A stretch of 64,000 nucleotides of DNA, from positions 22,756,001 to 22,820,000 of the forward strand of contig CM059432.1 of assembly GCA_030390025.1 (NCBI GenBank), read 5' to 3'. Under the pieces are notes generated by a model. The model did no database searches and was not told the origin of the DNA. It saw only the letters and a program-made list of their open reading frames with translations. The position numbers and the translations under genes were made by a program. Shown in pieces: positions 1,631-39,330 of the stretch. Positions within the stretch are counted from its first letter, which is position 1. Each line of letters begins with the position of its first letter. This stretch comes from Squalus acanthias. Its lineage: Eukaryota.

Positions 1631-2040
1631 TCTAATACTATTAACTTGTCAGCTATCTAAGGAGTTTCATTCTAAATTAATCTCAGCAACCTATATCAAT
1701 CTCAGACACTGATCATAACTGTAAATTTATAATCAGCAAGCAGTTAATGCTGAACTATTGATATAGAAGAAAGCCAGATAAATGGAGTTGCATTACAGAT
1801 AAGTGGTGATCTAATTGAATGGCGGAACAGGCGGAAGGGGCGGTGCAATACTGCCGGTGTTGCAATAACTCTCAGGACAAATTTCTATGCCAATTTGTCC
1901 TGCACTGTTATCTAACCATGTGCACTTTCTAGCAGGAGTCACTGGATAAAAGTTAGGAACTGTACCCCTGTATAATTTTGCTGAGGACAGTTGTGTCACG
2001 ATTGCTGTCCTAACCTAACACAGACTATAGAAGTCAACTT

Positions 2041-3361
2041 AAGACATAGGAACATAGGAACAGGAGTGGACCATTTAGCCCCTCGAGCCTGTTCCGCCAT
2101 TCAATGAGATCATGGCTGATCTGTGATCTAACTCCATATACCCTCCTTTGGCCCATATCCATTAATACCTTTGGTTAACAAAAAGCTATCAATCTCAGAT
2201 TTAAAATTAACAATTGATCTAGCATCAATTGCCATTTGCGGAAGAGAGTTCCAAACTTCTACCACCCTTTGTGTGTAAAAGTGTTTCCTAATTTCACTCC
2301 TGAGAGGTCTGGCTCTAAGTTTTAGACTATGCCCCCTAGTCCTAGAATCCCCAACCAGCGGAAATAGTTTATCTCTATCTACCCTATCTGTTCCCCTTAA
2401 TATCTTGAAAACTTCAATCAGATTACCCCTTAACCTTCAAAAGCTAGGGAATACAACCCTAATTTGTGTAATCTCTTCTCATAACTTAACCCTTGAAATC
2501 TGGGTATCATTCTGATAAACCTACGCTGCACTCCCTCCAAGGCCAATATATCCTTCCTAAGGTGTGGTGCCCAGAACTGCTCACAGTACTCCAGGTGTGG
2601 TCTAACCAGGGCTTTGGATAGCTGCAGCATAACTTCTACCCCCTTGTATTCTCGTCCTCTAGATATAAAGACCAGCATCCCATTAGCCTTTTTGATTATT
2701 TTCTGTACCTGTTGATGATATTTTAATGATTTATGTACCTGGGCCCCCAAGTCTCTTTGGACTTCCACTGTTTTTAACTTTTTACCATTTAAAAAGTATC
2801 CATTTCTATCCTTTTTATGTCCAAAGTGGATGACCTCACATTTGTTTAAATTGAAATCCGTTTGCCACAGTTGTGCCCATTCTCTTAATCTATCAAGATC
2901 CCTTTGTAATTTTATGCTTTCCTCTACACTGCTTACAATGCCGCCTATCTTTATGTCATCAGCAAATTTGGATATATGACTTTCTATGCCATCATCTCAG
3001 TCGTTAATAAATACTGTGAATAGTTGAGGCCCCAACACAGATCCCTGCGGGACACCACTAGTCACATCCTGCCAATTTGAGTACCTACCCATTATCCCGA
3101 CTCTCTGTCTCCTGCCGCTCAGCCAATTTCTTAACCAGGTCAATAATTTACCCTCAATTCCATGGGCTTCTACCTCAGTTAACAACCTCTGATGTGGGAC
3201 TTTATCAAATGCCTTCTGGAAGGCCATATAAATAACATTCCCCTGTTCACTACTTTAGTCATCTCTTCAAAACATTCAATCAGGTTTGTCAGGCATGACC
3301 TACCTTTCACAAATCCATGCTGGTTCTCTCTGATCAACTAAAAATTTTCAAGGTGTTCAGT
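2041..3361 (-). mobile_element. Old CR1 LINE, 3' part of ORF2 (RT) and tail; continues at ~18833-19850
   Basis: Minus-strand RT motifs [30 protein letters not shown]. Tandem (TTCCTATG)n-like tail at ~2041-2060. Reading stops at ...TEHLENF at 3361. Confidence 0.92.
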
Positions 3362-5646
3362 GCGAACAAGCACTGAGTGCGAGTCAGCAGAGAGTGCTGA
3401 GTTTGGGTAAGTGTGAGAGTTCTTTAATTGTTAGTTGTCTTTAAATCATTCTTGATAAGAGTACTTAAGCAGTTTAAGTGAAGGGGAAAAGTTAAATATT
3501 TGGGATTCTGTTGGTTTAAGAAGAGTAAATCAAGGTTACACTGCAGTAGGAGTAAATTGGCACAGCAGGCAGTGTAAACCAGTTTTCTAATCAATCAGCA
3601 GGGGTGACTCATTTGGCTGTAAACAAACAAACAGTATAAAAAGACCAGTGCTAGTGCGAGTCAGCAGAGAGTGCTGAGTTTGGGTAAGTGTGAGTTCGGG
3701 TGAGTGGGGTGTAGGGTGCTCTTTTCAAACTTTAACTCTGTGGGTTGTAGTTAATAAGGCCTTACTGGTGCAGAGTGACTGTTGGTAAACCATTTAACTG
3801 GTGTAATTTAGAGGGATCGATTTAATTTAAATCCAATTAATTAGAGGGGATACTAGCATCTATAATCGGGCAGAGAGTGTCCATAACTAACAATAAAAAC
3901 ATTGAATTAATTACATAGAATGGAGCAGGTGATGTGTTACTGTTGCGAGATGTGGGAGCCGGTGGACCTCATTGAGGCTCACGGTGATTACATCTGTGAC
4001 AAATGTCTGCTGCTACAGGAACTCCAGCTCCGTGTTGATGAGCTGGAGGCTGAGCTTCAGACACTGCGACACATCAGGGAGGGGGAGAAGTACCTGGACT
4101 CTGTGTTTCAGGAGGTGGTCACACCTATGAAGTTAATTAATTCAGATGTAGCCCATGGTCAGGGACAGGACGGTGTGACTACGAGTGAGGCAGGTACGGG
4201 GATCCAGGAGGTAGTGTTGGAGGAGCCGCAGCCCTTGCTCTTGTCCAACAGGTTTGAGGTTCTTACTCCCTGTGGGGACAGGAGCAGGGACTCCAGGGAG
4301 GATGAGCAACCTGGCCACAGCACCGTGGAACGGGGGGCCATTCAAGAGGGGGGAGTAAATAGAAATGTTGTAGTGGTAGGGGATAGTATTATTAGGGGGA
4401 TAGATAGAGTTCTCTGCAGCCGAGAGCGAGAGTCTCGTAGGCTGTGTTGCCTGCCCGGTGCCAGGGTTAAGGACATCTCCTCTGGGCTGGAAAGAAACTT
4501 GCAGTGGGAGGGGGTGGATCCAGTTGTCGTGGTCCATGTTGGTACAAACGACATAGATAGGACAAGGAAGCCGGTTCTGTTAAAGGAGTATGAGCAGCTA
4601 TGGGTCAAATTAAAAAACAGAACCTCAAGGGCAATAATCTCTGGATTATTACCTGAGCCACGAGCGAATTTGGCTAGGACAAATAAAATTAGAGAGTTAA
4701 ATGAGTGGCTCAAAGACTGGTGTGGGAGAAATGGGTTTTGCTTCCTGGGACACTGGCACCAGTAGCTGGGGCAGGAGGGAGCTGTTCCGTTGGGACGGGC
4801 TTCACTTGGCCAGTGCTGGGACTAGAGTCCTGGCGGATCATATAACTAGGGCTGTGGAGAGGGCTTTAAACTAACTAGTGGGGGGGAGGTTCCTAGAGAA
4901 CAAATAATAAAAATGACAACAGAGAAGGTCATAGACTTAGGTAGCAGTGGGGAAATTAAAAACCACAGTGTGTCAGGAAGGGGCAGAAGATATAGAGTAA
5001 AAGGTAAAGTAATAAAAAGGGCAAAAGCAGGAACTAAGTGTCACAAAACATATTTGAAAGTTCTCTATCTGAATGCACGTAGCATTCGTAACAAAATAGA
5101 CGAGTTAATGGCACAAATAACTACATATGGGTATGATCTTGTGGCCATTACAGAAACATGGCTGCAGGGTGACAATGCCTGGGAATTAAACATACCAGGT
5201 TATTTAACGATCAGGAAGGACAGGCAGGAAGGAAGGGGAGGTGGGGTGGCTATGTTAATAAAGGAAGGAATCACTAACACAGAGAAATTATATTGGGTCA
5301 AAAGATCAGGATAATGAAACAGTTTGGGTGGAGATAAGGAATAATAAGGGGAAAAAAACACTAGTGGGCGTAGTCTATAGGCCTCCAAACAGTTGCAACT
5401 CTGTTGGACGGAGTATCAATCAGGAAATAGTTGAGGCTTGTAATAAGGGAACATCTATAATTATGGGGGATTTTAATTATCATATTAATTGGACAAATCA
5501 AATTGGGCAGGGCTGCCTTGAGAATGAGTTCATTGAGTGTATTAGAAATGGGTTTCTTGAGCAGTATGTAACTGAACCGACCAGGGGGCAAGCAACCTTA
5601 GATCTGATCCTGTGTAACGAGACAGGATTAATTAAAAATGTCCTAG
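3362..5646 (+). mobile_element. CR1-A LINE, 5' part (5'UTR, ORF1, endonuclease start of ORF2), interrupted by ERV
   Basis: ORF1 from 3920 and ORF2 from 4913 (YLNARSIRNK, AITETWL, GDFN endonuclease motifs). Collinear with the intact copy at 6172-10477. Confidence 0.93.
3920..4874 (+). pseudogene. CR1-A ORF1 (Cys finger/leucine zipper plus SGNH esterase-like domain), frameshifted near the C-terminus
   Basis: CxxC...CxxC motif, heptad repeat, VVGDS and HVGTND esterase blocks. One extra G at ~4765 (CAGTAGCTG vs CAGTACTG in CR1-B) creates the stop. Confidence 0.9.
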
Positions 5647-6150
5647 TGAAAGGGTTAATTTGAACTCATGTTAAATTAAGTTAAATTAAAACCTCTTAGC
5701 TGTACGAAATAGAATAAGAACACAGGTGGAGAGATTAGCATGGATGAGAGTTGGAAACTTAGCCGCACTCAAGGCCAGAATACAATAAACGTCTGTGAAG
5801 AAATATAATGGACAAATGTGAGAATAAGATATAGCCCAGTACTCAAGCAAACATAGCAGCATATATACGCCATTGAATTGCTTTTAGTTTGTAGCTGACA
5901 AAGATAAGAAATATAATGAATTAATGGTTTAGTTTGAATTGACATAATTGTAATCATGTGATATTTTGTAACTATGTGATTGGACAATTCTTAAATAAAA
6001 GGTTGTAATTGACAACAAAAGGTCGAGAAGCTGCAGTCACCAGGCCGGGTAAGGTCTGTGACGCTTCTCCCAGAGATCTCTGAATATTAAATAAACTGTT
6101 TTGCTTTCACCTATCAACACAGACTGGAGTGAAATAATTTCACCCTAACA
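5647..6150 (+). mobile_element. ERV LTR copy 1 (504 bp), flanked on both sides by CTAG like a solo LTR
   Basis: TG...CA termini and AATAAA at ~6090. Direct repeat of 16288-16791. CTAG at 5643-5646 and 6151-6154. Confidence 0.93.
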
Positions 6151-6293
6151 CTAGTAAAGGATTCCATATTCTTTTTTTTATACAAAACTTCAATTCCATA
6201 GTTTATAGTTTCTCGGGTATCTGTGGTGTAGCGGAGACTGCTGGCATAAATTAACTGAAGGGTAAATAATACATTTTTAATTAATTACATAGA

Positions 6294-7250
6294 ATGGGAG
6301 AGCAGGTGATGTGTTACTGCTGCAATATGTGGGAGCTGGTGGACACCATTGATGTTCACGGTGAACACATTTGCAGTAAGTGTTGGCTGCTCGAGGAACT
6401 TCGGCTCCGTGTTGATGAGCTGGAGTCCGAGCTTCAAACACTGCGACACATCAGGGAGGGGGAGAGTTACCTGGACTCCGTGTTTCAGGAGGTAGTCACA
6501 CCAATTAGAGTAACTAATTCAGAAGTAGCCCGTGGTCAGGGACAGGAAGGTGTGACTACGAGTGAGGCAGGTACAGGGATCCAGGAGGTAGTGTTGGAGG
6601 AGCCGCAGCCCTTGCTCTTGTCCAACAGGTTCGAGGCTCTTACTCCCTGTGTGGATAGGAGCGGGGACTGCAGGGAGGATGAGCAACCTGGCCACAGCAC
6701 CGTGGTAAGGGGGGCCATTCAAGTGGGGGGAGTAAAAAGAAATGTTGTAGTGGTAGGGGATAGTAACATTAGGGGGATAGATAGGGTTCTTTGCAGCCAA
6801 GAGCGAGAGTCCCGAAGGCTGTGTTGCCTGCCCGGTGCCAGGGTTAAGGACATCTCCTCTGGGCTGGAGAGAAACTTGCAGTGGGAGGGGGAGGATCCAG
6901 TTGTCGTGGTCCATGTTGGTACCAATGACATAGATAGGACAAGGAAAGAGGTTCTGCTGAGGGAGTTTGAGCAGCTAGGGGCCAAATTAAAAAGCAGAAC
7001 CTCGAGGGTAATAATCTCTGGATTATTACCTGAGCCACGAGCAAATTTGGCTAGGGTAAATAAAATCAGGGAGTTGAATGCGTGGCTCAAAGACTGGTGT
7101 GGGAAAAATGGGTTTTGCTTCTTGGGACACTGGCACCAGTACTGGGGCAGGAGAGAGCTGTTCCATTGGGACGGACTTCACTTGGCCAGTGCTGGGACTA
7201 GTGTCCTGGCGAATCGAATAACTAGGGCTGTGGAGAGGGCTTTAAACTAA
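6294..7250 (+). CDS. CR1 ORF1p (zinc finger/leucine zipper plus SGNH/GDSL esterase-like), 318 aa
   Basis: CYCCNMW...CSKC motif, coiled coil, VVGDS / HVGTND / DGLHL blocks of the esterase fold known in CR1-clade ORF1. Confidence 0.92.
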   Translation: MGEQVMCYCCNMWELVDTIDVHGEHICSKCWLLEELRLRVDELESELQTLRHIREGESYLDSVFQEVVTPIRVTNSEVARGQGQEGVTTSEAGTGIQEVVLEEPQPLLLSNRFEALTPCVDRSGDCREDEQPGHSTVVRGAIQVGGVKRNVVVVGDSNIRGIDRVLCSQERESRRLCCLPGARVKDISSGLERNLQWEGEDPVVVVHVGTNDIDRTRKEVLLREFEQLGAKLKSRTSRVIISGLLPEPRANLARVNKIRELNAWLKDWCGKNGFCFLGHWHQYWGRRELFHWDGLHLASAGTSVLANRITRAVERALN

Positions 7251-7288
7251 TTAGTGGGGGGGAGGTTTCAAGAGAGCAAAAAATAAAA

Positions 7289-10240
7289 ATGATAACAGAG
7301 AGGGTCATAGACATAGGTAGCAGTAGGGGAATCACAAATCAGAGCGTGGCAGGAAGGGACAGAGTGTGTGGAGTAAAAGGTAAAGTGGTAAAAAGTGAAA
7401 AAGCAGGAACTAAGTGGCACAAAGCATATTTGAAAGTTCTCTATCTGAATGCACGTAGCATTCGTAACAAAATAGACGAGTTAATGGCACAAATAACTAC
7501 ATATGGTTATGATATTGTGGCCATTACAGAAACATGGCTGCAGGGTGACAATGCCTGGGAATTAAACATACCTGGTTATTTAACGATCAGGAAGGACAGG
7601 CAGGAAGGAAGGGGAGGTGGGGTGGCTATGTTAATAAAGGAAGGAATCACTGTAATACAGAGTAATGATATTGGGTCAAAAAATCATGATAATGAAACAG
7701 TTTGGGTGGAGATAAGGAATAATAAGGGGAAAAAAACACTAGTGGGCGTAGTCTATAGGCCTCCGAACAGTTGCAACTCTGTTGGACGGAGTATCAATCA
7801 GGAAATAGTTGAGGCATGTAATAAGGGAACATCTATAATTATGGGGGATTTTAACTATCATATTAATTGGACAAATCAAATGGGGCAGGGCTGCCTTGAG
7901 GATGAGTTCATTGAGTGTATTAGGGATGGGTTTCTTGAGCAGTATGTAACTGAACCGACCAGGGGGCAAGCAACCTTAGATCTGGTCCTGTGTAACGAGA
8001 CAGGATTAATTAAAAATGTCCTAGTAAAGGATCCCCTTGGAATGAGTGACCATAACATGGTTGAATTCCATATTCAATTAGAGGGTGAGAAGGTTGGATC
8101 TCAAACAAGCGTGCTAAGCTTGAATAAAGGAGACTATGAAGGTATGCGAGCGGAATTGAGTAGAGTGGATTGGGAAAATAGATTAAAGGGTAAGACGACA
8201 CATGATCAGTGGTGTACATTCAAGGAGTTATTTTACAATTTCCAAAAAAAATATATTCCACTGAAAAGAAAAGGGTGTAAAAGAAAGGACAGTCATCCGT
8301 GGCTAAGTAAAGAAATTAAGGATAGTATTCGACTAAAAACAAGGGCATATAAGGTAGCGAAATCTAGTGGGAGGACAGAGGATTGGGAAAACTTTAAAAG
8401 GCAGCAAAAAATAACAAAAAGATTGATTAAGAAAGGGAAGATAGATTATGAAAGTAAATTAGCAAAAAATATAAAAACAGATAGTAAGAGTTTTTGTAGT
8501 TACATAAAAAGAAAAAGGGTGGCTAAAGTAAATGTTGGTCCCTTAGAGGATGAGACCGGGAAATTAATGGTGGGAAATATGGAGATGGCAAAAACACTGA
8601 ATGAATATTTTGTATCAGTCTTTACAGTAGAGGACACTAAGAATATCCCAACACTGGACAAACAGGGGGCTATAGGGGGAGAGGAGCTAAACACGATCAA
8701 AATCACTAAGGAAGTGGTACTCGGTAAAATAATGGGACTCAAGGCGGATAAATCACCTGGACCTGATGGCTTACATCCTAGAGTCTTGAAGGAAGTGGCG
8801 GTAGGGATTGTAGATGCATTGGTAATAATTTTTCAAAACTCCCTGGATTCCGCTAAGGTCCCGGCAGACTGGAAAACTGCTAATGTAACACCCTTATTTA
8901 AAAAGGGCAGTAGACAGAAGGCTGGTAACTATAGACCGGTTAGCCTAACATCTGTGGTAGGTAAAATTTTGGAGTCCATTATTAAGGAAACAGTAACAGG
9001 ACATTTGGATAATCATAATTTAATAGGACAAAGTCAGCATGGTTTTATGAAGGGGAAGTCATGTTTGACAAATTTGCTGGAGTTCTTTGAGGAAGTAACA
9101 TATAGAGTGGATAAAGGGGAACCAGTGGACGTAGTGTATTTAGACTTCCAAAAGGCATTTGACAAGGTGCCACACAAAAGATTATTGCTTAAGGTAAAAA
9201 ATCACGGGATTGGGGGTAATATTCTGGCATGGATAGAGGATTGGCTATCTAACAGAAAGCAAAGAGTTGGGATAAATGGTTCATTCTCAGACTGGCAATC
9301 AGTAACTAGTGGTGTTCCACAGGGGTCAGTGCTGGGTCCCCAACTCTTTACAATCTATATTAACGATTTGGAGGAAGGGACCAAGTGTAACATATCAAAA
9401 TTTGCAGATGATACAAAGATGGGAGGGAAAGTAGTGAGTGAGGAGGACATAAAAAACCTGCAAGGAGACATAGACAGGCTAAGTAAGTGGGCAGAGATTT
9501 GGCAGATGGAATACAACACTGGAAAGTGTGAGGTGATGCACTTTGGCAGGAAAAATCCTAGAGCAATTTATTATCTTAATGGCAAGAAACTGGAGAGTAC
9601 TGAAGTGCAAAGGGATCTGGGGGTCCTGGTGCACGAAACTCAAAAGGTTAGTATGCAGGTGCAGCAAGTGATTAAGAAGGCAAATGGAATGTTGGCTTTC
9701 ATTGCTAGGGGGATAGAATATAAAAATAGGGAGGTATTGCTTCAGTTGTACAAGGTATTGGTGAGACCGCACCTGGAATACTGCATACAGTTTTGGTGTC
9801 CTTACTTAAGGAAAGACATCCTTGCTCTCGAGGCAGTGCAAAAAAGGTTCACTCGGTTAATCCCGGGGATGAGGGGGTGGTCATATGAGGAGAGGTTGGG
9901 TAGATTGGGACTCTACTCATTGGAGTTCAGAAGAATGAGAGGCGATCTTATTGAAACATATAAGATTGTGAAGGGGTTGGATCGGGTGGATGCGGGGAGG
10001 ATGTTCCCGATGACGGGTGAGACTAGAACTAGGGGACATAGTCTTAGAATAAGGGGCTGCTCTTTCAAAACTGAGATGAGGAGGAACTACTTCACTCAGA
10101 GGGTGGTAGGTCCATGGAATATGCTGCCACAAAAAGCTGTAGAAGCTACATCATTAAATAAATTTAAAACAGAAATAGACAGTTTCCTAGAAGTAAAGGG
10201 CATTAAGGGTTACGGGGAGCGGGCAGGAATTTGGACATGA
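7289..10240 (+). CDS. CR1 ORF2p, apurinic-like endonuclease plus reverse transcriptase, 983 aa, no stops
   Basis: NARS, TETW, GDFN, LDL, SDH endonuclease motifs. [36 protein letters not shown] motifs. Confidence 0.96.
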   Translation: MITERVIDIGSSRGITNQSVAGRDRVCGVKGKVVKSEKAGTKWHKAYLKVLYLNARSIRNKIDELMAQITTYGYDIVAITETWLQGDNAWELNIPGYLTIRKDRQEGRGGGVAMLIKEGITVIQSNDIGSKNHDNETVWVEIRNNKGKKTLVGVVYRPPNSCNSVGRSINQEIVEACNKGTSIIMGDFNYHINWTNQMGQGCLEDEFIECIRDGFLEQYVTEPTRGQATLDLVLCNETGLIKNVLVKDPLGMSDHNMVEFHIQLEGEKVGSQTSVLSLNKGDYEGMRAELSRVDWENRLKGKTTHDQWCTFKELFYNFQKKYIPLKRKGCKRKDSHPWLSKEIKDSIRLKTRAYKVAKSSGRTEDWENFKRQQKITKRLIKKGKIDYESKLAKNIKTDSKSFCSYIKRKRVAKVNVGPLEDETGKLMVGNMEMAKTLNEYFVSVFTVEDTKNIPTLDKQGAIGGEELNTIKITKEVVLGKIMGLKADKSPGPDGLHPRVLKEVAVGIVDALVIIFQNSLDSAKVPADWKTANVTPLFKKGSRQKAGNYRPVSLTSVVGKILESIIKETVTGHLDNHNLIGQSQHGFMKGKSCLTNLLEFFEEVTYRVDKGEPVDVVYLDFQKAFDKVPHKRLLLKVKNHGIGGNILAWIEDWLSNRKQRVGINGSFSDWQSVTSGVPQGSVLGPQLFTIYINDLEEGTKCNISKFADDTKMGGKVVSEEDIKNLQGDIDRLSKWAEIWQMEYNTGKCEVMHFGRKNPRAIYYLNGKKLESTEVQRDLGVLVHETQKVSMQVQQVIKKANGMLAFIARGIEYKNREVLLQLYKVLVRPHLEYCIQFWCPYLRKDILALEAVQKRFTRLIPGMRGWSYEERLGRLGLYSLEFRRMRGDLIETYKIVKGLDRVDAGRMFPMTGETRTRGHSLRIRGCSFKTEMRRNYFTQRVVGPWNMLPQKAVEATSLNKFKTEIDSFLEVKGIKGYGERAGIWT

Positions 10241-10478
10241 GTCTAGGTTCGGATCGGTCATGGCCCTATGGGTAGTGGAGCGGGCCCAGGGACCGTGTAG
10301 CCTGATTCTGCTCCTATTTCGTGTGTGCAATTCTGTTAGATGCAGGAGATGGTTCTGTGATAGATAGTAGATTGGCGGTTAGGATCAGATCAGCCATGAT
10401 CTTATTGAATGGCGGAGCAGGCTCGAGGGGCCGATTGGCCTACTCCTGCTCCTATTTCTTATGTTCTTATGTTCTTAG

Positions 10479-10640
10479 ACCGTCTGGGGAGTGAGGAAAA
10501 TGTTGGGACTATTTAACTACTGCAGGAATTTTATATCAGACTTTGCAGGGAAAGCAGAGCCGATTTAACGGTTAGTTAAAGAGGGATCCAGTAGCGAAGG
10601 CAATGCCACGATGTGTGGCTGCAATAGATTGTGCCACAAG
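10479..10640 (+). pseudogene. Retroviral pol remnant (RT thumb and tether)
   Basis: Manual translation TVWGVRKMLGLFNYCRNFISDFAGKAEPI*RLVK, then (after a deletion) DPVAKAMPRCVAAIDCA. Confidence 0.8.
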
Positions 10641-13244
10641 AATTGAAAAAAAAACTTTGAACTACAATTTAAGTTAAGCTGGTGTGTAAAACTGAGAAGA
10701 ACAACAAAGTTTGTTTAACAAAAGATTAAGTTTCGGTCTAAGATTTAACCTTGAAGTCACGGTTGCTATGGTGAAATCTTCCAAAGCAGTTTGGTTTGAT
10801 TTGCGTAAATGTGAAAAACTAATTTTTCTCCAGTTATATTCAATGTTTTTACAGTATTTTGGAAAGGCATCTGAAGAAAGGACAATAAGAAATATGATGT
10901 AATTTATGGTTTTCTACAAGCATGTACTAGTTTGTTTTGTTTTATCTGTTCTGTTCGTGTTCAGTTAAAGTGTGAAAACAATGCTGTCTTTTCTGATCAG
11001 GAAAGTTTTTTTTAAATTTACGTGAAGTGACGCAATTGCGTGCATCTGATAATGTTTCGCTCCACCTTCTTAAAAACCTGCAAAGGAGTTAACCCTTTCC
11101 ACTGACAGCTGTTTAAGTTCATCAAGCAATAACTTTAGTTTTACTGGATGAAATTTAAAGATATTGGAAATTTAAGTTTCTAAGCCACCTAGCTTAGAAA
11201 CCACTTGTTTCTGAAATTGGAATTGATAAGATAAATTGATAGAAATGAAATTGAACATTGACAAAACCTGTCAGTTCAACAGTACTGCTGTTTGGGTTTT
11301 GGGATAATTTTGAAATGACGAAATGGACTCAGGCACTATATATTGGGTTACTTATGGGAAAATAAAGATCCTCTAAAATAATAAATAACAGACGTTACTA
11401 TGTTTTCAATCTTAAATATTGTACTAGACAGTAAAGTTTCTCCACGGCTCATGAATGAGATATGAATGGTAATTAAAGGGAAGTGATTGAAGGTGTAAGA
11501 TTGAAACAGGAGAATTACACTACTGAATGGGAATTAAAAAAAAACTTTCTGGTGAAAATCAGGAAAGGGTAGCAGCGGGAGGGCGGGGCGGGGGGGCATC
11601 GCAACCGAACAAGAGGATTCAGGGGAGCTGTTATACTTGTGGAAAAGTGGGACATATGGCAAATTAAACAGGAAAGAGTAGCTAAGAATAGTAAATTGAT
11701 AGCTTTCTCTTGGAGACATTTGTGTCCCTGCCTATAATGAACTTTTTAAGAAAACTGAATTTGATAGCCTGGCCACTATCCAAGACATTGGGACCATGCA
11801 GAGGAAGATGAACAAAGACCTCCAGACAATCTTTTGATAAGATACCTGAAAGCCCGAGAAAGGCACATGTGGCATGATGTGGAGATACCGATATGAGTGT
11901 GCAAATGTGATTTGTTACATGTGAGGCAGTTGCCATCCGGGAATGTATGGTGAATCTGCACTGAAGAATGGGTCTCAGTCTGCTCAGTTACTTGACAACA
12001 GCAAAACATGAAATGGTTAATGTGGTTCAGGAGAGCGAGACAACTTTTAAAGCATTGACACATACTCCGTCGAGAAACTATCTAATTAATGAAACAATCA
12101 GAATAGAGTTAAAAACACTGGTACCTGTTAGAGGGATTGAAATTGAAGTTGAAGTGGAGAGTTACATGGAATCTGGATTGGGACAATTGAGGGCTAAGGA
12201 GAAATCATGTTTAGTAAGAATTATCCACAAGATGGATATGAGTCAAGAGAGATCTGGAGAATCTTTTAAGTCCATGATTTGTTGATTAGATGTTAACTGT
12301 AATGTTGCTTGAAATGATTGTAAGACTGAATTTAACTGTGACTGTAATAATTGTGTTTTGTAGGTAACAGAGTGTGGGGAAAAACCAGTGCGAATCCAGT
12401 ATGAGGTGGTTTTGGTGGTGCCTCCTGTGTCACTACTACTGCAATTACCATGCTTTATGGGTCTAACAGGACCTGTCCCATCAACCAACACGTTTTTAAG
12501 TATGAGCTACACAATTAAGTGGCACAATTCGGATACTACATTCCCCTGTTGTCTAAGGGTACCAGTGAGCTCATGATGCGACTGAACTCCTCCCTAAAGC
12601 CTTTTTATGTTTTGGAGGAAGACAACTCGAGAATAGATATTGAAATTGACAGCGTAGAGGACAACTCACACTGGTGGGATATTGGGCTTAATATATCAGC
12701 ACACCCTTAGATTCGTATTATTTCACACGCTCTGGTAGTTCTCCAACTTGTAATGATAGTGTATTTGATATATGTAACGTGTGGAGTAAGACTTTGATAC
12801 ATAAGCCAATTGGGTACTCATGCCTATGACTAACCAGCACCAACAAATTAATTGAGCACACCAAAAGAGAAGATCCAAAGCAATATAGAGGAGACCCCAG
12901 GCGGGGTAACATCAGGAAAGATAGAAGAAACAGAGGATACCCCAGGCGGAGCAGAATTGGAACACCGGAACAATGAATTGAATTTGAGTAAGGGGTCAGA
13001 GGTTGCTCCTTCTCCTCCAAGGAATGGACTGTTGGAAGGGAGAAATCTTCAAGACTCCCTGCTAACTAATGCCCAAGTTGAGAGAGCAATAAGAACTAGC
13101 TAGATTAGTCAAGAGCCGATTGTGAGAAGTCAATAAGGATATTTCCTTCTCAAAGAAGGGAATTGTAAGAAATAGCTGTTAGATTCAAAGATGGGTTTTA
13201 ATTCTTAGAACAGAGACTGACAACATGCAGCCAGGAACGGATAA
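10641..13244 (+). mobile_element. Fragment of a second LTR retroelement embedded in ERV pol (leader-like DNA, gag knuckle, env-like TM remnant, PPT plus LTR start)
   Basis: CYTCGKVGHMAN* at ~11630-11667. ...VEDNSHWWDIGLNISAHP*IRIISHALVVLQLVMIVYLIYVTC at ~12650-12785. Purine tract AAAGAAGGGAA 13152-13162, then TGTAAG at 13164. Confidence 0.6.
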
Positions 13245-14648
13245 CAGATATGCATTCGGGGTAGTACATGATTATATGACAGCTTGGGGGAGACGAGGGT
13301 TTGTCACAACAGGTGGAGACCACATTAAACATCAATAACGGATAGAAGCCCTTTTGGAAGCCGCGAAGGCTCCCACACAGGCAGCAGTAGTAAAGATAAA
13401 AGCCCATCAGAAGATAGAAAACCCTCAACAGAAGGGAAACAGAGCGGCAGATTTAGCAGCACAACAAGCATTAAAACAAGAAAGGGTTATAGAGACGGTA
13501 GCTAGTGTACAGGTGGAGGAGGTGGATATTAAAAGATTACATAAGGACACCCCGCCTGGAGAAATGCAGGAATGGTATCGTGTAGGAGGTAGAGAAGATG
13601 AAGAAGGGATGTGACGGAAAAACGGCAAAGTAATAGCCCCCGTTTGCATTCGGCAAACGCTCTTGAACTTACACCACGGCAGTGACCACACTGGAAGGGG
13701 GGCAATGATTCATTTAATAGAACAAGAATGGTGGTGGCCAGGTGTAGGGAGGGATATAGCAAAACACTGTCAGAGGTGCCTAACGTGTGCACAATATAAT
13801 CCAGGATGGCCAGTAAAAATACAGCCAAGACCAAGGGGTACCTGGGAAAAGATACAAATAGACTTTACGGGACCCCTACCAATCTCAAGGGGAAAGGTGT
13901 ACTGCCTAGTGGTAATAGATCAATTCACGCGATGGGTGGAAGCTTTCCCCACACAAAACTGCACAGCTGCCACAGTGGCCCGGATAATGGCAGAGGAAAT
14001 AATACCGCGATGGGGGGTGCCCACTCAAATCGACACTGACCAGGGAACCCATTTCACGGGAAAGGTAGTAAAGGATATCTGCGCGTGGATGGGAATAAAA
14101 CAAAAATTTCACATTCCCTACCGTCCTCAGAGCTCTGGGATGGTGGAACGAATGAATCGGACCCTAAAAAGGCTCTGAGCGAAAACTACCAATTTTGGGT
14201 AGATGCTCTGCCCGCAGTCCTGATGAAATTACGAGCTATCCCTAATTGAACGACAGGCTTATCTCCCTATGAATTAATGACAGGGCGAGCAATGCAACTC
14301 CCTTATGGAATTATAACGGGAGGAGAGGAACTAGGACCCTTAAAGGACAGGATCCGCCGGTATGTCCTTGAATTAAGCAAGCAGTTAAAAGAAATGAGAC
14401 AGCAGGTTAGAGAAAGACAGGAAGAAAAGGATAAAAATTTAGACTTGTCTGCGTTAACAAAAGTTCCCTCTGCAGGAATGAAAGTAATGGTTAAGGTCCT
14501 GGCTGCAAAGCCAGGGTTTGCCCCAAGATGGTCCGGTCCTTATCAAGTCCTTATCAGTGGGGATACGTGTGCTTGTATTGATATAAAGGGAATGGGAAGG
14601 TGGAAACACTGGACCCAGCTAAAGACCTTTAACCCTTCACCAGTGTAG
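13245..14648 (+). pseudogene. Retroviral RNase H plus integrase, with stops and frameshifts
   Basis: YAFGVVHDYMTAWGRRGF...KIKAH...GNRAADLAA (RNase H). HHCC zinc finger, IDFTGP / DTDQGTHF / GMVERMNRTLK (DDE), PRWSGPYQV (GPY/F). Confidence 0.93.
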
Positions 14649-14650
14649 AG

Positions 14651-16056
14651 ATGGACGCAACAAAACAAATACCGGGTATAAGGAGTGAGGAAGAGTGGAT
14701 ACCGTATACAGAATGGGAATGGCCCCTGGTAAGGGGATTGGTCTGGGCATTATGCATCATTCTGATTTGCTTCACATTGGGTTGGAGTAAATGCGAGCAG
14801 ATATATGAATTAAAGGTGACCAGGAGTGGGTACGATGGTGCAACCTTCACGTATGGGACGTGGAATCTCGGTACAATTCCAAACATGACTAGTGGGGGGC
14901 CATGGAAGGGTATAATTATGATGATGAATAACATATGGAGTAGGTTTGAAGCCTATAATAACACTTACTTCATATGTGGACATAAAGCTTACCCGTGGCT
15001 CCCCTACAATTGGACGGGGTCTTGTTATCTGGGGTATGTCGTACCCTTTGTACATCACTGCCTAAACCTCAAGGAAAACCCAGCCTATCATTATAAATGA
15101 GAAATTACTGAGGCTGAAAGATACTTCGCGATCTATTTTCCCCCATACGGAGTCGCGAGAGCTATTAAAGAGATATGCTTGTTGGCAGAGGTTTTAGAAC
15201 AGGTTGGGAATGATACAGCAGAAGCTCCAATTGAAACATATAAGATTGTGAAGGGGTTGGATCGGGTGGATGCGGGGAGGATGTTCCCGATGACGGGTGA
15301 GACTAGAACTAGGGGACATAGTCTTAGAATAAGGGGCTGCTCTTTCAAAACTGAGATGAGGAGGAACTACTTCACTCAGAGGGTGGTAGGTCCATGGAAT
15401 ATGCTGCCACAAAAAGCTGTAGAAGCTACATCATTAAATAAATTTAAAACAGAAATAGACAGTTTCCTAGAAGTAAAGGGCATTAAGGGTTACGGGGAGC
15501 GGGCAGGAATTTGGACATGAGTCTAGGTTCGGATCGGTCATGGCCCTGTGGGTAGTGGAGCGGGCCCAGGGACCGTGTAGCCTGATTCTGCTCCTATTTC
15601 GTGTGTGCAATTCTGTTAGATGCAGGAGATGGTTCTGTGATAGTAGATTGGCGGTTAGGATCAGATCAGCCATGATCTTATTGAATGGCGGAGCAGGCTC
15701 GAGGGGCCGATTGGCCTACTCCTGCTCCTATTTCTTATGTTCTTATGTTCTTATGTTCTTATGTTCTTATTAACGCCGAGATGGTAGCGATAAGGACAGT
15801 GATGCTACAAAACCGAATGGCACTTGATTACCTCCTAGCACAAAAAGGGGGAACATGTGCATTGATTGGGACAGAGTGCTGTACATACATTCCTGACAGT
15901 TCAGAAAATATAACTGATTTGGCTGAGCACATACAGAGGGAAGTTCGGATGTTACACGAAACCACAGGGGCAAACTGGTGGGAATGGTTGTTTGGGGGAT
16001 CATGGGGTTCATATCTGATGCATGGCAGCGATGTAAGGCAGCGATGGCTAGAATGA
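14651..16056 (+). pseudogene. Gamma-type retroviral env, internally deleted and split by CR1-C
   Basis: Signal-like hydrophobic segment, YFICGHKAYPWLPYNWTGSCYLGYVVP (SU C-terminus), HYK* (probable cleavage site, CGA>TGA), LQNRMALDYLLAQKGGTCALIGTECC (ISD plus CX6CC). Confidence 0.92.
15230..15770 (+). mobile_element. CR1-C, 5'-truncated 3' fragment nearly identical to the end of CR1-B
   Basis: Matches 9950-10477 except one substitution, one 4-bp indel and tail length (by eye). Confidence 0.95.
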
Positions 16057-16287
16057 TGCCGGTTGCTGTAGTCAATATTGAACCAAGCAATGAACAGCTG
16101 CAACAGGATATCTATATGTAAAGCTCTTTTCTTTTCATAGAGACCACCAGACACCCGACACCAAGGATAGATAGAAGGGAGAGGCGAATTTATGAACACA
16201 GATATAATCCGGGGATGATAAATGCGGGAAAGAAGTCTGTATCCCTGACCAAAATGTTTAATTTGGCACGGGACCGAAAGGAGGGAG

Positions 16288-16791
16288 TGAAAGGGTTCAT
16301 TTGAACTCATGTTAAATTAAATTAAATTAAAACCTCTTAGCTGTACGAAATAGAATAAGAACCCAGGTGGAGAGATAAGCATGGGTGAGAGTTGGAAACT
16401 TAGCCGCACTCAAGGCCAGAATACAATAAACATCTGTGAAGAAATATAATGGACAAATGTGAGAATAAGATACAGCCCAGTACTCAAGCAAACATAGCAG
16501 CATATATACGTCATTGAATTGCTTTTAGTTTGTAGCTGACAAAGATAAGAAATATAACGAATTAATGGATTAGTTTGAATTGACATAATTGTAATCATGT
16601 GATATTTTGTAACTATGTGATTGGACAATTCTTAAATAAAAGGTTGTAATTGACAACGGGAGGTCGAGAAGCTGTAGTCACCAGGCAGGGTAAGGTCTGT
16701 GACGCTTCTCCCAGAGATCTCTGAATATTAAATAAACTGTTTTGCTTTCACCTATCAACACAGACTGGAGTGAAATAATTTCTCCCTAACA
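16288..16791 (+). mobile_element. ERV 3' LTR (504 bp)
   Basis: Preceded by the PPT (16276-16287), TG...CA termini, followed by the CTAG TSD (16792-16795). Confidence 0.94.
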
Positions 16792-18835
16792 CTAGTAAAG
16801 GATTCCATATTCAATTAGAGGGTGAGAAGGTTGGATCTCAAACAAGCGTGCTAAGCTTGAATAAAGGAGACTATGAAGGTATGCGAGCGGAATTGAGTAG
16901 AGTGGATTGGGAAAATAGATTAAAGGGTAAGACGATACATGATCAGTGGTGTACATTTAAGGAGTTATTTTACAACTTCCAAAAAATATATATTCCACTG
17001 AGAATAAAAGGGTGTAAAAGAAAAGACAGTCATCCGTGGCTAAGTAAAGAAATTAAGGATAGTATTCGACTAAAAACAAGGGCTTATAAGGTAGCCAAAT
17101 CTAGTGGGAGGATAGAGGATTGGGAAAACTGTAAAAGACAGCAAAAAATAACAAAAAGATTGATTAAGAAAGGGAAGATAGATTATGAAAGTAAATTAGC
17201 AAAAAATATAAAAACAGATAGTAAGAGTAAGAAAACTGCTAATGTAACACCCTTATTTAAAAAGGGCAATAGACAGAAGGCTGGAAACTATAGACCGGTT
17301 AGCCTAACATCTGTGGTAGGTAACATTTTGGAGTCCATTATTAAGGAGACAGTAATGGGGCATTTGGATAATCATAATTTAATAGGACAAAGTCAGCATG
17401 GTTTTATGAAGGGGAAGTCATGTTTGACAAATTTGCTGGAGTTCTTTGAGGAAGTAACATACAGGGTGGATAAAGGGGAACCAGTGGATGTGGTGTATTT
17501 AGACTTCCAAAAGGCATTTGACAAGGTGCCACACAAAAGATTATTGCTTAAGATAAAAAATCACAGGATTGGGGGTAATATTCTGGCATGGATAGAGGAT
17601 TGGCTATCTAACAGAAGGCACAGAGAGTTGGGATAAATGGTTCATTCTCAGACTGGCAATCAGTAACTAGTGGTGTTCCGCAGGGGTCAGTGCTGGGTCC
17701 CCAACTCTTTACAATCTATATTAATGATTTGGAGGAGGGGACCGAGTGTAACATATCAAAGTTTGTAGATGATACTAAGATGGGAGGGAAAGTAGTGAGG
17801 GAGGAGGACATAAAAAACCTGCAAGGGGACATAGCCAGGCTAAGTAAGTGGGCAGAGATTTGGCAGATGGAATACAATGCTGGAAAGTGTGAGGTTATGC
17901 ACTTTGGCAGGAAAAATAGTAGAGCAAGTTATTATCTTAATGGCAAGAAACTGGAAAGTACTGAAGTACAAAGGGATCTGGGGGTCCTGATGCACGAAAC
18001 TCAAAAGGTTAGTATGCAGGTGCAGCAAGTGATTAAGAAGGCCAATGGAATGTTGGCTTTCATTGCTAGGGGGATAGAATATAAAAATAGGGAGGTATTG
18101 CTTCAGTTGTACAAGGTATTGGTGAGACCGCACCTGGAATACTGCATACAGTTTTGGTGTCCATACTTAAGAAAAGACATACTTGCTCTCGAGTCAGTAC
18201 AAAGAAGGTTCACTCGGTTAATCCCGGGGATGAGCGGATGGACATATGAGGAGAGGTTGGGTAGATTGGGACTCTACTCATTGGAGTTCAGAAGAATGAG
18301 AGGCGATCTTATTGAAACATATAAGATTGTGAAGGGGTTGGATCGGGTGGATGCGGGGAGGATGTTCCCGATGATGGGTGAAACTAGAACTAGGGGGCAT
18401 AGTCTTAGAATAAGGGGCTGCTCTTTCAAAACTGAGATGAGAAGGAACTACTTCACTCAGAGGGTGGTAGGTCCATGGAATATGCTGCCCCAAAAAGCTG
18501 TAGAAGCTACATCATTACATAAATTTAAAACAGAAATAGACAGTTTCCTAGAAGTAAAGGGAATTAAGGGTTACGGGGAGCGGGCAGGAATTTGGACATG
18601 AGTCTAGGTTCGGATCGGTCATGGCCCTGTGGGTAGCGTAGCAGGCCCAGGGGCTGTGTAGCCTGATCCTGCTCCTATTTCGTGTGTCCAATTCTGTTAG
18701 GTTCAGGAGATGGTTCTGTGATAGTAGATTGGCGGTTAGGATCAAATCAGCCATGATCTTATTGAATGGCGGAGCAGGCTCGAGGGGCCAATTGGCCTAC
18801 TCCTGCTCCTATTTCTTATGTTCTTATGTTCTTAT
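16792..18835 (+). mobile_element. CR1-A LINE, 3' part (rest of ORF2 with deletions and a frameshift, 3'UTR, tail)
   Basis: Resumes at CTAGTAAAGGA exactly where 5646 stopped. Small deletion at ~16803, large deletion at ~17229, frameshift at ~17620, (TTCTTATG)n tail. Confidence 0.93.
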
Positions 18836-21835: not shown

Positions 21836-22449
21836 GACTACATCTAAGGTAGTTTGAGCCTCATTTGGCTTTGGGCTGCAGTATAGTGAACTGATGTGAA
21901 GTGAAGTTGTAAAAGTTCCCAGGCAAACTTTCCAAATGTAAGTTTTCACTTTTTATTATAAGCAGAAAGTTGTTTATACATTTTAACCTTTATCAGTTTA
22001 CTGCTAAGGGAAACTTTTCACTTACATCTAAGCACACATGTGCATAGCTCAGTTTCCCCTGGTCAGATGACATTTAACTGACAGTATAACTTGGTACCAG
22101 CTTTGAGTTAATCTAAAGTATAAAACGCTTCAGGACATCCTGAGGTCAAGAAAGGTGCTATATAAATGCAAGTTCTTTTGTTCGTTCTTAAGCAAGCACT
22201 GATCTCAAACTGTAGTGTAATCACATACATGTAGAAGCTTACAGATCATTCGGTCTCCCCATCTCCATGGTCCACTCCCCCTACCCCACTATTCCACCCC
22301 TGCCCACTGGCTAAAGGTTCCTTGTAGCATCTCCTGTATAGAAATAATGTGAAAGTAGCTGTTTTTTAAATTTTTTTAAAAACCTATGAGAAAGAGTTTA
22401 ATAACAGTAAACATTATCGTTAAGAATCTAACTGTATTATAAATAGGAT

Positions 22450-23450
22450 AAAATTCCATTACAGGAAGTATAAAACCCAAATTGTAGAAAAGATGTAACT
22501 CCATTTTAGAAAGGATATAACCACATTATAGAAAGAATATAACCCCATTGTAGGAATCATATTTGACCAGAAACTTAACTGGACCAGCCACATAAATACT
22601 GTGGCAACAAGAGCAGGTCAGAGGCTGGGTATTCTGTGGCGAGCGTCTCATCTCCTGACTCCCCAAAGCATTTCCACCATCTACAAGGCACAAGTAAGGA
22701 GTGTGAAGGAATATTCTCCACTTGCCTGGATGAGTGTAGCTCCAAAAACACTCAAGAAGCTCGACACCATCCAAGACAAAGCAGCCCGCTTGATTGGCAC
22801 CCCATGCACTACCTTAAACATTCACACCCTCCACCACCGGCGTACCATGGCTGCAGTGTGTACCATCTACAAGATGCACTGCAGCAACTCGCCAAGGCTC
22901 CTTCGGCAGCACCTCCCAAACCCGCGACCTCTACCACCTAGAAGGACAAGGGCAACAGGCGCATGGGAACACCACCACCTCCAAGTTCCCCTCCAAGTCA
23001 CATACGATCCTGACTTGGAAGTATATCGCCGTTCCTTCATCGCCGCTGAGTCAAAATCCTGGAATTCCCTCCCTAACACCACTATGCGAGTACCTTCACC
23101 ACACGGACTGCAGCGGTTTAAGAAGGCGGCTCAGCACCACCTTCTCAAGTGCAACTAGGGATGGGCAATAAATGCTGGCTTTGCCAGCGACACCCACATC
23201 CCAGGAATGAATAAAAAATATATAATCCCATTGTAGGAAGAATATAACCCCATTATAGGAAGACTATTACCCCATTATAGGAAGGATATAATCCTATTAT
23301 AGAAAGGATATACCCACATTGTAGAAAGAATATAACCCCATTATAGAAGGATATAATCCTATTATAGGAAGACTAGAACCCCATTATTGGAAGAATATAA
23401 TTCCATTGTAGGAAGAATATAACTCCATTATGGAAGGATATAATCATAGG
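22450..23450. repeat. Degenerate ~22-bp minisatellite (CCCATTATAGGAAGAATATAAC-like) split by a LINE; further units at ~25462-25548
   Basis: Repeated CCATT(A/G)TAG(G/A)AAG(G/A)ATATAA units at ~22450-22556 and ~23219-23450. Confidence 0.8.
22557..23218 (+). mobile_element. Non-LTR retrotransposon 3' fragment (CR1/L2 superclade, a family distinct from CR1-A/B)
   Basis: IYKAQVRS..EYSPLAW...LDTIQDKAARLI (post-RT region). Tail GGATGGGCAATAAATGCTGGC...GAATGAATAAAAAA. Confidence 0.85.
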
Positions 23451-23737
23451 AAGGAGGTAGCTCTATTACATTAATTTATGTATTTAGGTCTTTCCTCGAC
23501 TTGCTATTCTCGATATTTCAGCCACTGTATTTTAGAATACTCTCATTGATTTATCTTGGCTCATTCCGGTCTTGATAGTATATTAATTCATTCGGACAAG
23601 CACATAAGTTTCTGATAGGGAGCCCAGGATAACAAACAGATTTTTTTTCTGTAAATTGCCATAGCTACTGGATCTATCCTGTCTTTCCACACGACCTTTT
23701 CACATCTTTAAAAAGTGATGAGTATTACAAACTTTTA

Positions 23738-24631
23738 GGGGGAAAAATTCAGTATCGCCCCGTTTGGGGCGCGATTATCGGCCGGGCGCAAAGTTTAGCG
23801 CCTGGCGCTAATTATCGCCTCCGACTGCAAACTTGGCTTTTATCGCCCCTGGGGGTGATTGGAGCACTAAATCAGGCGCTTCACACCTGTCTTAAGGCGC
23901 AAAGGCCGAGGAGCGAGGCGCTACCTCAGAGCGCTGGTGAAGCTCATGTGATGTCAGTCAGCAATGGAACACAGACACAATGGCGCCGGCCAGTTCTTAA
24001 AGGGGAGGGTTGATCTTGCTCTCCATCCACATCCTGCTCATTGCAGCCTTGAATCTCGGCCTGGAGAGACCTGTACATGAAATCTGCTGGAAGGAACAAT
24101 GGAGAGTACCAGGGATAGAGCTCAGCGTGCAGCCCCCACAGTCTCTTCTAAATCGATACAAGGAAGGGCAAATCAAAATTAACCTGCAAAGTGCTGTTCA
24201 GTACCCCAAACTCCTTCACACAGCGTTGAAACTCTCCAGAAGTCTCTCTCTCTCTCTCTCAGAATACGTGGTGCAAAAATGTCACCAACAAAAAAAGGCA
24301 GGAAGCGGTCGCCTTTAATTAGCGCTCCCCCAGACCCTTCCTGACTGCAAAACGCTCCCCTCAACCTGTCGTTGCTAACGGCAGGCAGTAAGACAGGGGG
24401 CGCCACTCAATATCTGGTCCAGGGCGCTACCGGAGCGTTGCACTCTCGACTGACGTCACGATCGACCGGCGCAGGAGATCGTGGCGGTACTGTTTAGCGC
24501 CGCCGGAAAATGTCTAGTTAATTTCGTGAGCGGTGCAAACATCACCGCGTACGGGCGCTAGTTGCTTTGCGCCCCATTAGTGCCCTCCTAAGGCGCTAAA
24601 GGGAGGCGCAAACCAACTGAATTTTTCCCCC
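23738..24631 (+). mobile_element. Non-autonomous PIF/Harbinger element (MITE), 894 bp
   Basis: Perfect 16-bp TIR GGGGGAAAAATTCAGT / ACTGAATTTTTCCCCC with TTA TSD on both sides. Confidence 0.93.
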
Positions 24632-25112: not shown

Positions 25113-25554
25113 ACTATATAATATATATGTCTATAGTAAATATTATAACCAACTCCATGAAAGAAAATAAATGAATGCAATCTCTATTTTAAGCTAATAT
25201 TGTGCAGTTATCCTTTATTTGCACAGCTATTCTTTTCTTCAACCTACTCAAACATGGACCTGCGAGTTATATATAAATATATAACTTAACCAGTCACACA
25301 GCATATTTGCCCAGCAATAACCAAATAAAGCTTCAGAACATTTATATTGAGTTAGTTTGGGAATATGATTCTGGCTGCAGTTGGTTCTTAAGCTCCTTCT
25401 GTATCGTGACTGGATTAAAAGTGCCACCACTGGACAAAAAATGCTTAATTTGTGTTACAGCACCCATTATAAGAAGTATTTAACCCACTTTTGCGAAAGG
25501 ATGTGATCCCATTAAAAGAAGGATGCAAACCCATTATAGAAGGATATAAAAATA

Positions 25555-39036: not shown

Positions 39037-39330
39037 ATAGAGTCATAACGGCGCAGAAGGAGGCCATTCGGCCCATCGAGTCCGCGCCGGCTCTCTGCAG
39101 AGCAATCCAGTCAGTCCCATTCTCCCGCTCTATCCCCGTAGCCCTGCAAGTTTATTTTCCTCAAGTGCCTATCCAGTCTTCCCTTGAAAACATTGACAGT
39201 CTCCACTTCCACCACTTCCGTCGACAGCGAATTTCAGGTCCTCACCACTCGCTGCGTAAAAAAGTTTTTCCTCACATCCCCCCTATATCTCTTGCCCAAA
39301 ACCTTAAATCTGTGTCCCCTAGTCCTTGTA
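39037..39330 (-). mobile_element. CR1 3' fragment (tail continues at ~36102-36116)
   Basis: Typical CR1 3'UTR on the minus strand. Confidence 0.75.

What the first reader, a model, noticed from the sequence alone, without database searches (positions are those of the whole stretch)
5643..16812. Both LTRs are followed by the same 21-bp host flank: probable multi-kb duplication linked to a CR1 insertion, then solo-LTR formation
Seen: LTR1 (5647-6150) has no PBS after it. It is followed by CTAGTAAAGGATTCCATATTC, identical to the 21 bp after LTR2 (16792-16812), including a CR1-A-specific deletion junction (GGA|TTCC) absent from CR1-B. CR1-B comes next, and the ERV then starts abruptly in mid-RT at 10478. 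A normal provirus cannot give this order. Inference: CR1-B inserted with widely staggered breaks, duplicating everything from mid-pol to 21 bp past the 3' LTR (about 6 kb), and the first copy then collapsed to a solo LTR. Alternatively, CR1-B joined a solo-LTR allele to a provirus allele. The LTRs differ at roughly 16 of 504 sites by eye but are identical over 6047-6141, which fits a recombinant LTR1.
Basis: partly seen in the sequence, partly recalled or inferred. Interest (0 to 1): 0.7.

Follow-up and report, generated by a model that had tools for sequence, protein, structure and literature searches.

The report
Retroelement insertion scar inside old provirus
A young CR1 retrotransposon sits inside a dead endogenous retrovirus whose front 2 kb or so is missing and whose two end repeats are followed by the same 21 host bases, likely a scar of faulty repair during the insertion, a known kind of event in DNA made only of repeats.

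Summary
The order is real. It runs CR1-A 5' half | LTR1 | 21 bp | young near-full-length CR1-B | ERV from inside RT | LTR2 | the same 21 bp | CR1-A 3' half. The 21-mer occurs exactly twice in the 3.7-Gb assembly, both here; none of 28 other LTR copies carries it. CR1-B joins it by 2-nt microhomology and is about 4 times younger than the provirus.

The 95-bp identical LTR stretch is chance-level (P about 0.5). A 6.3-kb duplication is not shown: only 21 bp, plus at most the LTR's 3' end, is demonstrably duplicated, and 1.7-2.0 kb is lost compared with relatives.

My preferred reading (0.5) is one step: while CR1-B inserted, the upstream end was resected to LTR1, copied from LTR2 to 21 nt past it, and joined to the CR1 cDNA. 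Long duplication then LTR collapse (0.2) gives the same sequence. Of 19 sister CR1 copies, 18 show no long duplication and one is unreadable. Public runs were uninformative. Human L1 makes deletions, templated inserts and duplications of this kind. Low interest.

The parts
2034..3361 (-). older CR1, left flank of the whole nest
   Evidence: BLAST to other CR1 copies; continues at about 18833 with a 5-bp gap against a relative in L048 at 86-89% identity
3362..5646 (+). CR1-A, 5' half (ORF1 remnant with GDSL esterase domain, start of ORF2), ends in CTAG
   Evidence: 92% to CR1-B over 3902-5653; PF13472 E 4e-9
5647..6150 (+). LTR1, in the place of the original 5' LTR; no PBS behind it
6151..6171 (+). 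21-bp copy of the flank that follows LTR2 (CTAG plus 17 bp of CR1-A spanning its 34-bp deletion)
6172..10477 (+). CR1-B: young, near full length, truncated in its 5' UTR, joined by TC microhomology; ORF1 frame 321 aa and ORF2 frame 1004 aa open; TTCTTATG tail
   Evidence: 14 private substitutions in 4306 bp against 18 sister copies
10478..16287 (+). defective ERV body from inside RT: RT remnant, non-pol segment shared with relatives, integrase, env remnant, polypurine tract
   Evidence: (rve E 1.5e-21; TLV_coat E 8e-11)
15230..15768 (+). CR1-C: 5'-truncated copy of the same young family inserted in env, no target duplication, short microhomology
   Evidence: 99% to the CR1-B 3' end; empty site in L052 and L066
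16288..16791 (+). LTR2, the 3' LTR
16792..18835 (+). CR1-A, 3' half, starting with the original 21-bp flank; second internal deletion near 17228-17231
   Evidence: 96-97% to CR1-B

Best explanation
A young CR1 (CR1-B) sits in the RT region of a provirus that lies inside an older CR1, and its 5' end was likely joined in one faulty repair step that deleted the provirus front and copied the LTR end plus 21 host bases from LTR2. Steps: (1) shown: CR1-A inserted in an old minus-strand CR1, then the ERV inserted in CR1-A with a CTAG duplication. (2) shown: CR1-B is about 4 times younger than the ERV and its tail abuts RT at 10478. (3) inferred: after target-primed reverse transcription, the upstream DNA end was resected 1.7-2.0 kb back into LTR1. 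(4) inferred: that end paired with the 97% identical LTR2 (same molecule or sister chromatid), was extended to 21 nt beyond it, and was released. (5) inferred from the junction: it was joined to the CR1 cDNA through TC microhomology. The net change is +4.3 kb of CR1, loss of PBS to mid-RT, and 21 bp (at most about 125 bp) copied. No multi-kb duplication need have existed.
For: The junction lies in the CR1 5' UTR, 29-407 bp inside the 5' ends of 20 sister copies, with 2-nt microhomology, as expected of an insertion junction. Relatives show 1676, 1969 and 2045 bp between the 5' LTR and the base matching 10478. The copied flank stops only 21 bp past the LTR, which fits a short repair tract better than an independent break (my inference, not computed). 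Sister copies show matches of at most 5 nt at their ends and no long duplication in 18 of 19 readable copies, the other lying in a satellite. PMC4245944 and PMC4760211 (passages read) report long target truncations and 5' extra nucleotides templated from flanking DNA for zebrafish ZfL2 LINEs. PMC11702581 (passages read) reports L1 insertions with locally templated sequence and 1-10 kb deletions.
Against: No sequence feature separates this from the rivals, since all give the same product. LTR1 shows no sign that its 3' end came from LTR2, although the test has no power because LTR2 has no private change in its last 104 bp. The passages I read do not give an example with a template 6 kb away reached through LTR homology. 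The relative odds rest on rough priors of my own.
Confidence: 0.5

Rival explanations
1. One reading: CR1-B inserted with a distant second break or bridged sister chromatids, duplicating 10478-16812 (6,335 bp); the original 5' LTR later recombined with the first copy's 3' LTR.
For: Gives the observed order exactly. The 40 bases before CR1-B recur about 6.3 kb after its tail. L1 target duplications over 1 kb occur in NER-deficient cells (PMC5223499, passages and Discussion read). An L1-bridged tandem duplication is reported in a tumour (PMC7058536, passages read). Solo LTRs are common in this family: 7 of 28 hits have exact 4-bp flanking repeats.
Against: Needs the second break to land within 21 bp of the LTR end by chance. 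Needs a collapse between 504-bp LTRs that differ by 3% rather than between 6.3-kb identical copies, within the short age of CR1-B (0.33% against 1.4-1.6% per lineage). No long duplication in 18 of 19 sister copies. The recombinant-LTR signal is chance-level.
Confidence: 0.2
2. CR1-B first inserted normally. A later, unrelated double-strand break was repaired by one-sided invasion of LTR2 and end-joining into the CR1-B 5' UTR.
For: Same product; needs no unusual insertion (inference).
Against: The join would have to fall in the few hundred bases of the CR1 5' UTR out of about 6.5 kb available (rough estimate).
Confidence: 0.12
3. Two alleles were joined: a solo-LTR allele and a provirus allele, either bridged by the inserting CR1-B or crossed over between two separate CR1-B-family insertions.
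For: Solo LTRs are common. At C15 a solo LTR and a provirus with the same flanks lie about 50 kb apart. At C5 a 16.3-kb tandem duplication has its ends in a repeated 1.65-kb element inside the closest related provirus.
Against: Same 21-bp coincidence as the two-step model. CR1-B shows no mosaic pattern: 14 private sites along its length and no switch of nearest relatives, though the family is star-like and the test is weak.
Confidence: 0.11
4. Assembly artefact from merged haplotypes or a chimeric read.
For: Reads of the assembled individual could not be examined. Three public runs show no depth over 6156-6167, which the tool says proves nothing.
Against: No N in the window and a 154-Mb contig. 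The two LTRs carry their own private changes. The odd junction is non-homologous with LINE-type microhomology, whereas haplotype merges happen in homologous sequence (general knowledge). The outer flanks are continuous.
Confidence: 0.07

Closest known systems
LINE 5' junctions with long target-site truncation and flank-templated extra nucleotides (zebrafish ZfL2-1 and ZfL2-2/CR1-2_DR; PMC4245944, PMC4760211, passages read)
   Same: Target DNA lost upstream, extra bases copied from flanking DNA, 1-2 nt microhomology at the 5' end.
   Different: Here the template lies 6.3 kb downstream and seems to be reached through LTR homology; the loss is 1.7-2.0 kb; the event is in the assembled genome, not in cultured cells.
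L1 insertions with very large target-site duplications (PMC5223499, passages and Discussion read)
   Same: The flank before the element recurs kilobases after it.
   Different: Only the last 21 bp plus the LTR are present twice; the element is a CR1, whose clade peak is a few bp (PMC4245944).
L1-bridged deletions, tandem duplications and locally templated insertions in tumours and cell models (PMC7058536, PMC11702581, passages read)
   Same: A LINE copy joins two non-adjacent DNA ends.
   Different: Non-L1 element, kb scale, no gene affected.
Solo-LTR formation by LTR-LTR recombination (general knowledge)
   Same: LTR1 has CTAG on both sides and no PBS, like a solo LTR.
   Different: The rest of the provirus and a second LTR with the same flank survive downstream.

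Membership tests
CR1-type LINE (CR1-B) | ORF2 with APE endonuclease and RT; ORF1 with esterase domain | tested here: met
   PF03372 E 4e-13, PF00078 E 4.5e-31, PF13472 E 6e-10
CR1-type LINE (CR1-B) | 3' tail of short tandem repeats rather than poly(A) | tested here: met
   TTCTTATG repeats end at 10477
CR1-type LINE (CR1-B) | placement in the CR1 clade on an RT tree | not tested
Endogenous retrovirus, gamma/epsilon-like | TG...CA LTRs, 4-bp target duplication, PBS, PPT, integrase, env | tested here: met
   PBS seen in relatives only; the relative's RT frame matches retroviral RT structures best
Endogenous retrovirus, gamma/epsilon-like | genus-level placement on a pol tree | not tested
   The best PDB match of the integrase is foamy virus, so the class label is provisional
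Long target-site duplication | the whole duplicated segment present on both sides of the element | tested here: not met
   Only the LTR and 21 bp recur; 10478-16287 has no second copy in the window
Long target-site duplication then LTR collapse | LTR1 is a 5'/3' recombinant | tested here: inconclusive
   P about 0.5 for the identical run; likelihoods 0.26 and 0.24
LINE-mediated deletion with templated 5' insert | upstream target DNA lost, extra bases match nearby DNA, microhomology at the 5' end | tested here: met
LINE-mediated deletion with templated 5' insert | loss and insertion arose in the same event | not testable with these tools
   Needs pre-insertion and intermediate alleles; public runs did not hold the junctions

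The most novel reading that the evidence does not exclude
A germline CR1 insertion made a 6.3-kb duplication, or used LTR-to-LTR homology to repair its own 5' end, so CR1 in this non-mammalian vertebrate drives kb-scale rearrangements and strips provirus fronts in the way L1 does in tumours; such scars would be countable across this genome's young CR1 family.
Probability: 0.35. Interest if true: 0.45.

Novelty: new member of a known kind. Interest (0 to 1): 0.27.

Why it matters
The locus is made only of mobile elements, so no host function is at stake. Its value is as a clean natural example of LINE-linked rearrangement outside human L1. It is also a caution: an LTR with matching flanks and no PBS can look like a solo LTR, and LTR-pair dating can mislead at such loci. 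The assembly holds a large, very young CR1 family (1072 first-look candidates for the 5' piece), so the frequency of such events can be measured.

Tried and rejected
Family trait: rejected. The 21-mer is unique to this locus in an exact search and follows 0 of 28 other LTRs.

6172-6275 as filler or inverted DNA: rejected. It is the normal 5' UTR of the CR1-B family; all 40 scored hits are 99-100% identical.

Recombinant LTR1: no signal either way.

Mosaic CR1-B from two insertions: no signal, weak test.

CR1-mobilised retrocopy of an ERV read-through RNA (10478-18835): set aside, because the right flank is the original site and continues the old CR1.

Public runs: 20 were listed, all as contigs, best share 0.69. 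Four runs laid on 3000-6275 were swamped by repeats. Three runs laid on 6090-6240 had no depth on the 21-mer. Whether they are the same species was not established, so this is no evidence.

Earlier scan findings: none returned.

Paper searches: none with CR1 + target site truncation + microhomology + LINE + junctions. One irrelevant review for solo LTR + endogenous retrovirus + shark + CR1 (listing only). Nothing matching in the listing for three LTRs + LINE insertion. These searches cover only the open library and do not show that the case is absent from print; supplements were not opened.

The non-pol segment gave no Pfam hit and no Atlas hit at 0.9 or above.
Full report
Observation. The two LTRs (5647-6150, 16288-16791) are 504 bp and differ at 16 sites; both are followed by the same 21 bases. 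Exact searches of the 3.7-Gb assembly find the 21-mer, and the 29-mer that includes the LTR end, only at these two places. The 21-mer spans a 34-bp deletion relative to CR1-B, so it is a mark of this CR1-A copy. An LTR search scored 40 of 547 candidates. I inspected 28 hits other than the window's: 8 are followed by the PBS-like sequence, 7 have exact 4-bp flanking repeats like solo LTRs, and none has the 21-mer. The host is not given; the repeats resemble those of cartilaginous fish (recalled, not tested).

Anatomy. An old minus-strand CR1 is interrupted at 3361 and resumes near 18833, with only 5 bp missing against a relative, so everything between is one nest. CR1-A fills it, split by the ERV with a CTAG duplication. 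After LTR1 and the 21 bp comes CR1-B (6172-10477). Its first 129 bases match all 40 scored hits at 99-100%, so they are the family's 5' UTR. The junction shares TC with both sides. CR1-B has open frames of 321 and 1004 aa with esterase, endonuclease and RT domains. The ERV resumes at 10478. In the closest relative (L051) that base lies inside RT. Three relatives have 1676, 1969 and 2045 bp between the 5' LTR and that base, so that much is missing here. The body is a defective form shared with other copies at about 95%. A third CR1, CR1-C, sits in env without a target duplication.

Timing. CR1-B has 14 private substitutions in 4306 bp against 18 sister copies (0.33%, interval 0.18-0.55%). The LTRs differ by 1.4-1.6% per lineage (interval 0.76-2.3% for 14 events). 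Two of the 20 fetched copies (L078, L106) were left out of this count because they did not align in one piece. CR1-B is therefore about 4 times younger than the provirus.

Test of the recombinant LTR. A run of 95 identical bases or more arises in 51% of random placements of 16 differences. Against 25 full-length other LTRs, no site in the last 104 bp is private to both window LTRs, and 6142 is private to LTR1. One private change in 104 bp is equally likely for an old and a young segment (0.26 against 0.24).

Test of long duplications in the family. I fetched 20 of the 40 listed 5'-bearing copies with flanks. One lacked a 3' end in range. Of 19, all show at most 5 nt of end match. 18 show no recurrence of either 40-nt flank within about 6.6-7.0 kb upstream and 7.8-8.7 kb downstream; one lies in a satellite and cannot be read. 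The sample is small, chosen for having a 5' UTR, and would miss duplications that have since collapsed.

Mechanism. Every model must put a copy of LTR2's flank behind LTR1, remove PBS to mid-RT, and attach CR1-B's 5' end there. A one-step repair does it too: the upstream end is resected to LTR1, copies from LTR2 to 21 nt past its end, and joins the cDNA by microhomology. The products are identical. I prefer the one-step model (0.5 against 0.2) for three inferred reasons. A 21-bp overshoot is natural for a short repair tract but a coincidence for an independent break. After a duplication, 6.3 kb of identical sequence should recombine sooner than two LTRs 3% apart. And the time available was short. 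Later unrelated repair (0.12), joining of two alleles (0.11) and assembly error (0.07) remain. These odds are judgement, not computation.

Independent data. Twenty public runs were listed, all as contigs. Neither lay helped: the first was swamped by repeats, and the second showed no depth on the 21-mer in three runs, which the tool says proves nothing. The junctions are thus unconfirmed by reads.

Known cases. PMC5223499 (passages and Discussion): L1 duplications over 100 bp stay at or below 10% of events in HeLa, and many exceed 1 kb in NER-deficient cells. PMC7058536 (passages): an L1-bridged tandem duplication, explained by sister-chromatid bridging. PMC4245944 and PMC4760211 (passages): 3-5 bp duplication peak for L2 and similar for CR1, long truncations, and 5' extra bases templated from flanks. 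PMC11702581 (passages): deletions, small duplications and locally templated inserts at L1 sites. PMC13526784 (passages): L1 intermediates recombine with other breaks. I found no CR1-in-provirus case in the listings, which does not show absence from print.

Verdict. A real-looking, locus-specific rearrangement linked to a young CR1 insertion; a new member of a known kind; the multi-kb duplication is possible but unproven. Interest 0.27.

Noticed in passing
window 10640-13236: A non-pol segment of about 2.6 kb sits between the RT remnant and integrase and is shared at about 95% by several other copies (L051, L055, L057, L060, L066) but mostly absent from the 8.6-kb copy L058. It holds broken frames without Pfam hits; Atlas leads for 11965-12282 (scores under 0.9, galactose-binding-like folds) are weak.
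   Followed up: partly
window 10494-10586 against L058: The RT piece is only 72% identical to the 8.6-kb family copy while integrase and env are 94%, so this sublineage looks like a recombinant of two ERV families.
   Followed up: partly
L050-L054 (C5:73064439-73103500): The closest related provirus has a 16.3-kb tandem duplication (99% identical) whose ends lie in a 1.65-kb element present five times, as from unequal crossover.
   Followed up: partly
L056 and L063 (C15:61874396-61930755): A provirus and a solo LTR with the same flanks lie about 50 kb apart, so one integration site is present in both states.
   Followed up: partly
window 6172-10477: CR1-B belongs to a very young family with both frames open; 18 sister copies differ from each other by 29 substitutions on average in 4.3 kb, and their 5' UTRs carry GC-rich tandem repeats.
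   Followed up: yes
window 3376-3417 and 3653-3694: A 42-bp exact repeat at the 5' end of CR1-A, suggesting a rearranged 5' junction.
   Followed up: no
window 22420-23460 and 25495-25549: Arrays of a 22-bp unit in two or three blocks.
   Followed up: no
window 23731-24260 and 38514-39043: A 530-bp inverted pair at 94%, with several other inverted pairs between 22.9-24.6 kb and 36-43 kb, probably copies of one mobile element.
   Followed up: no
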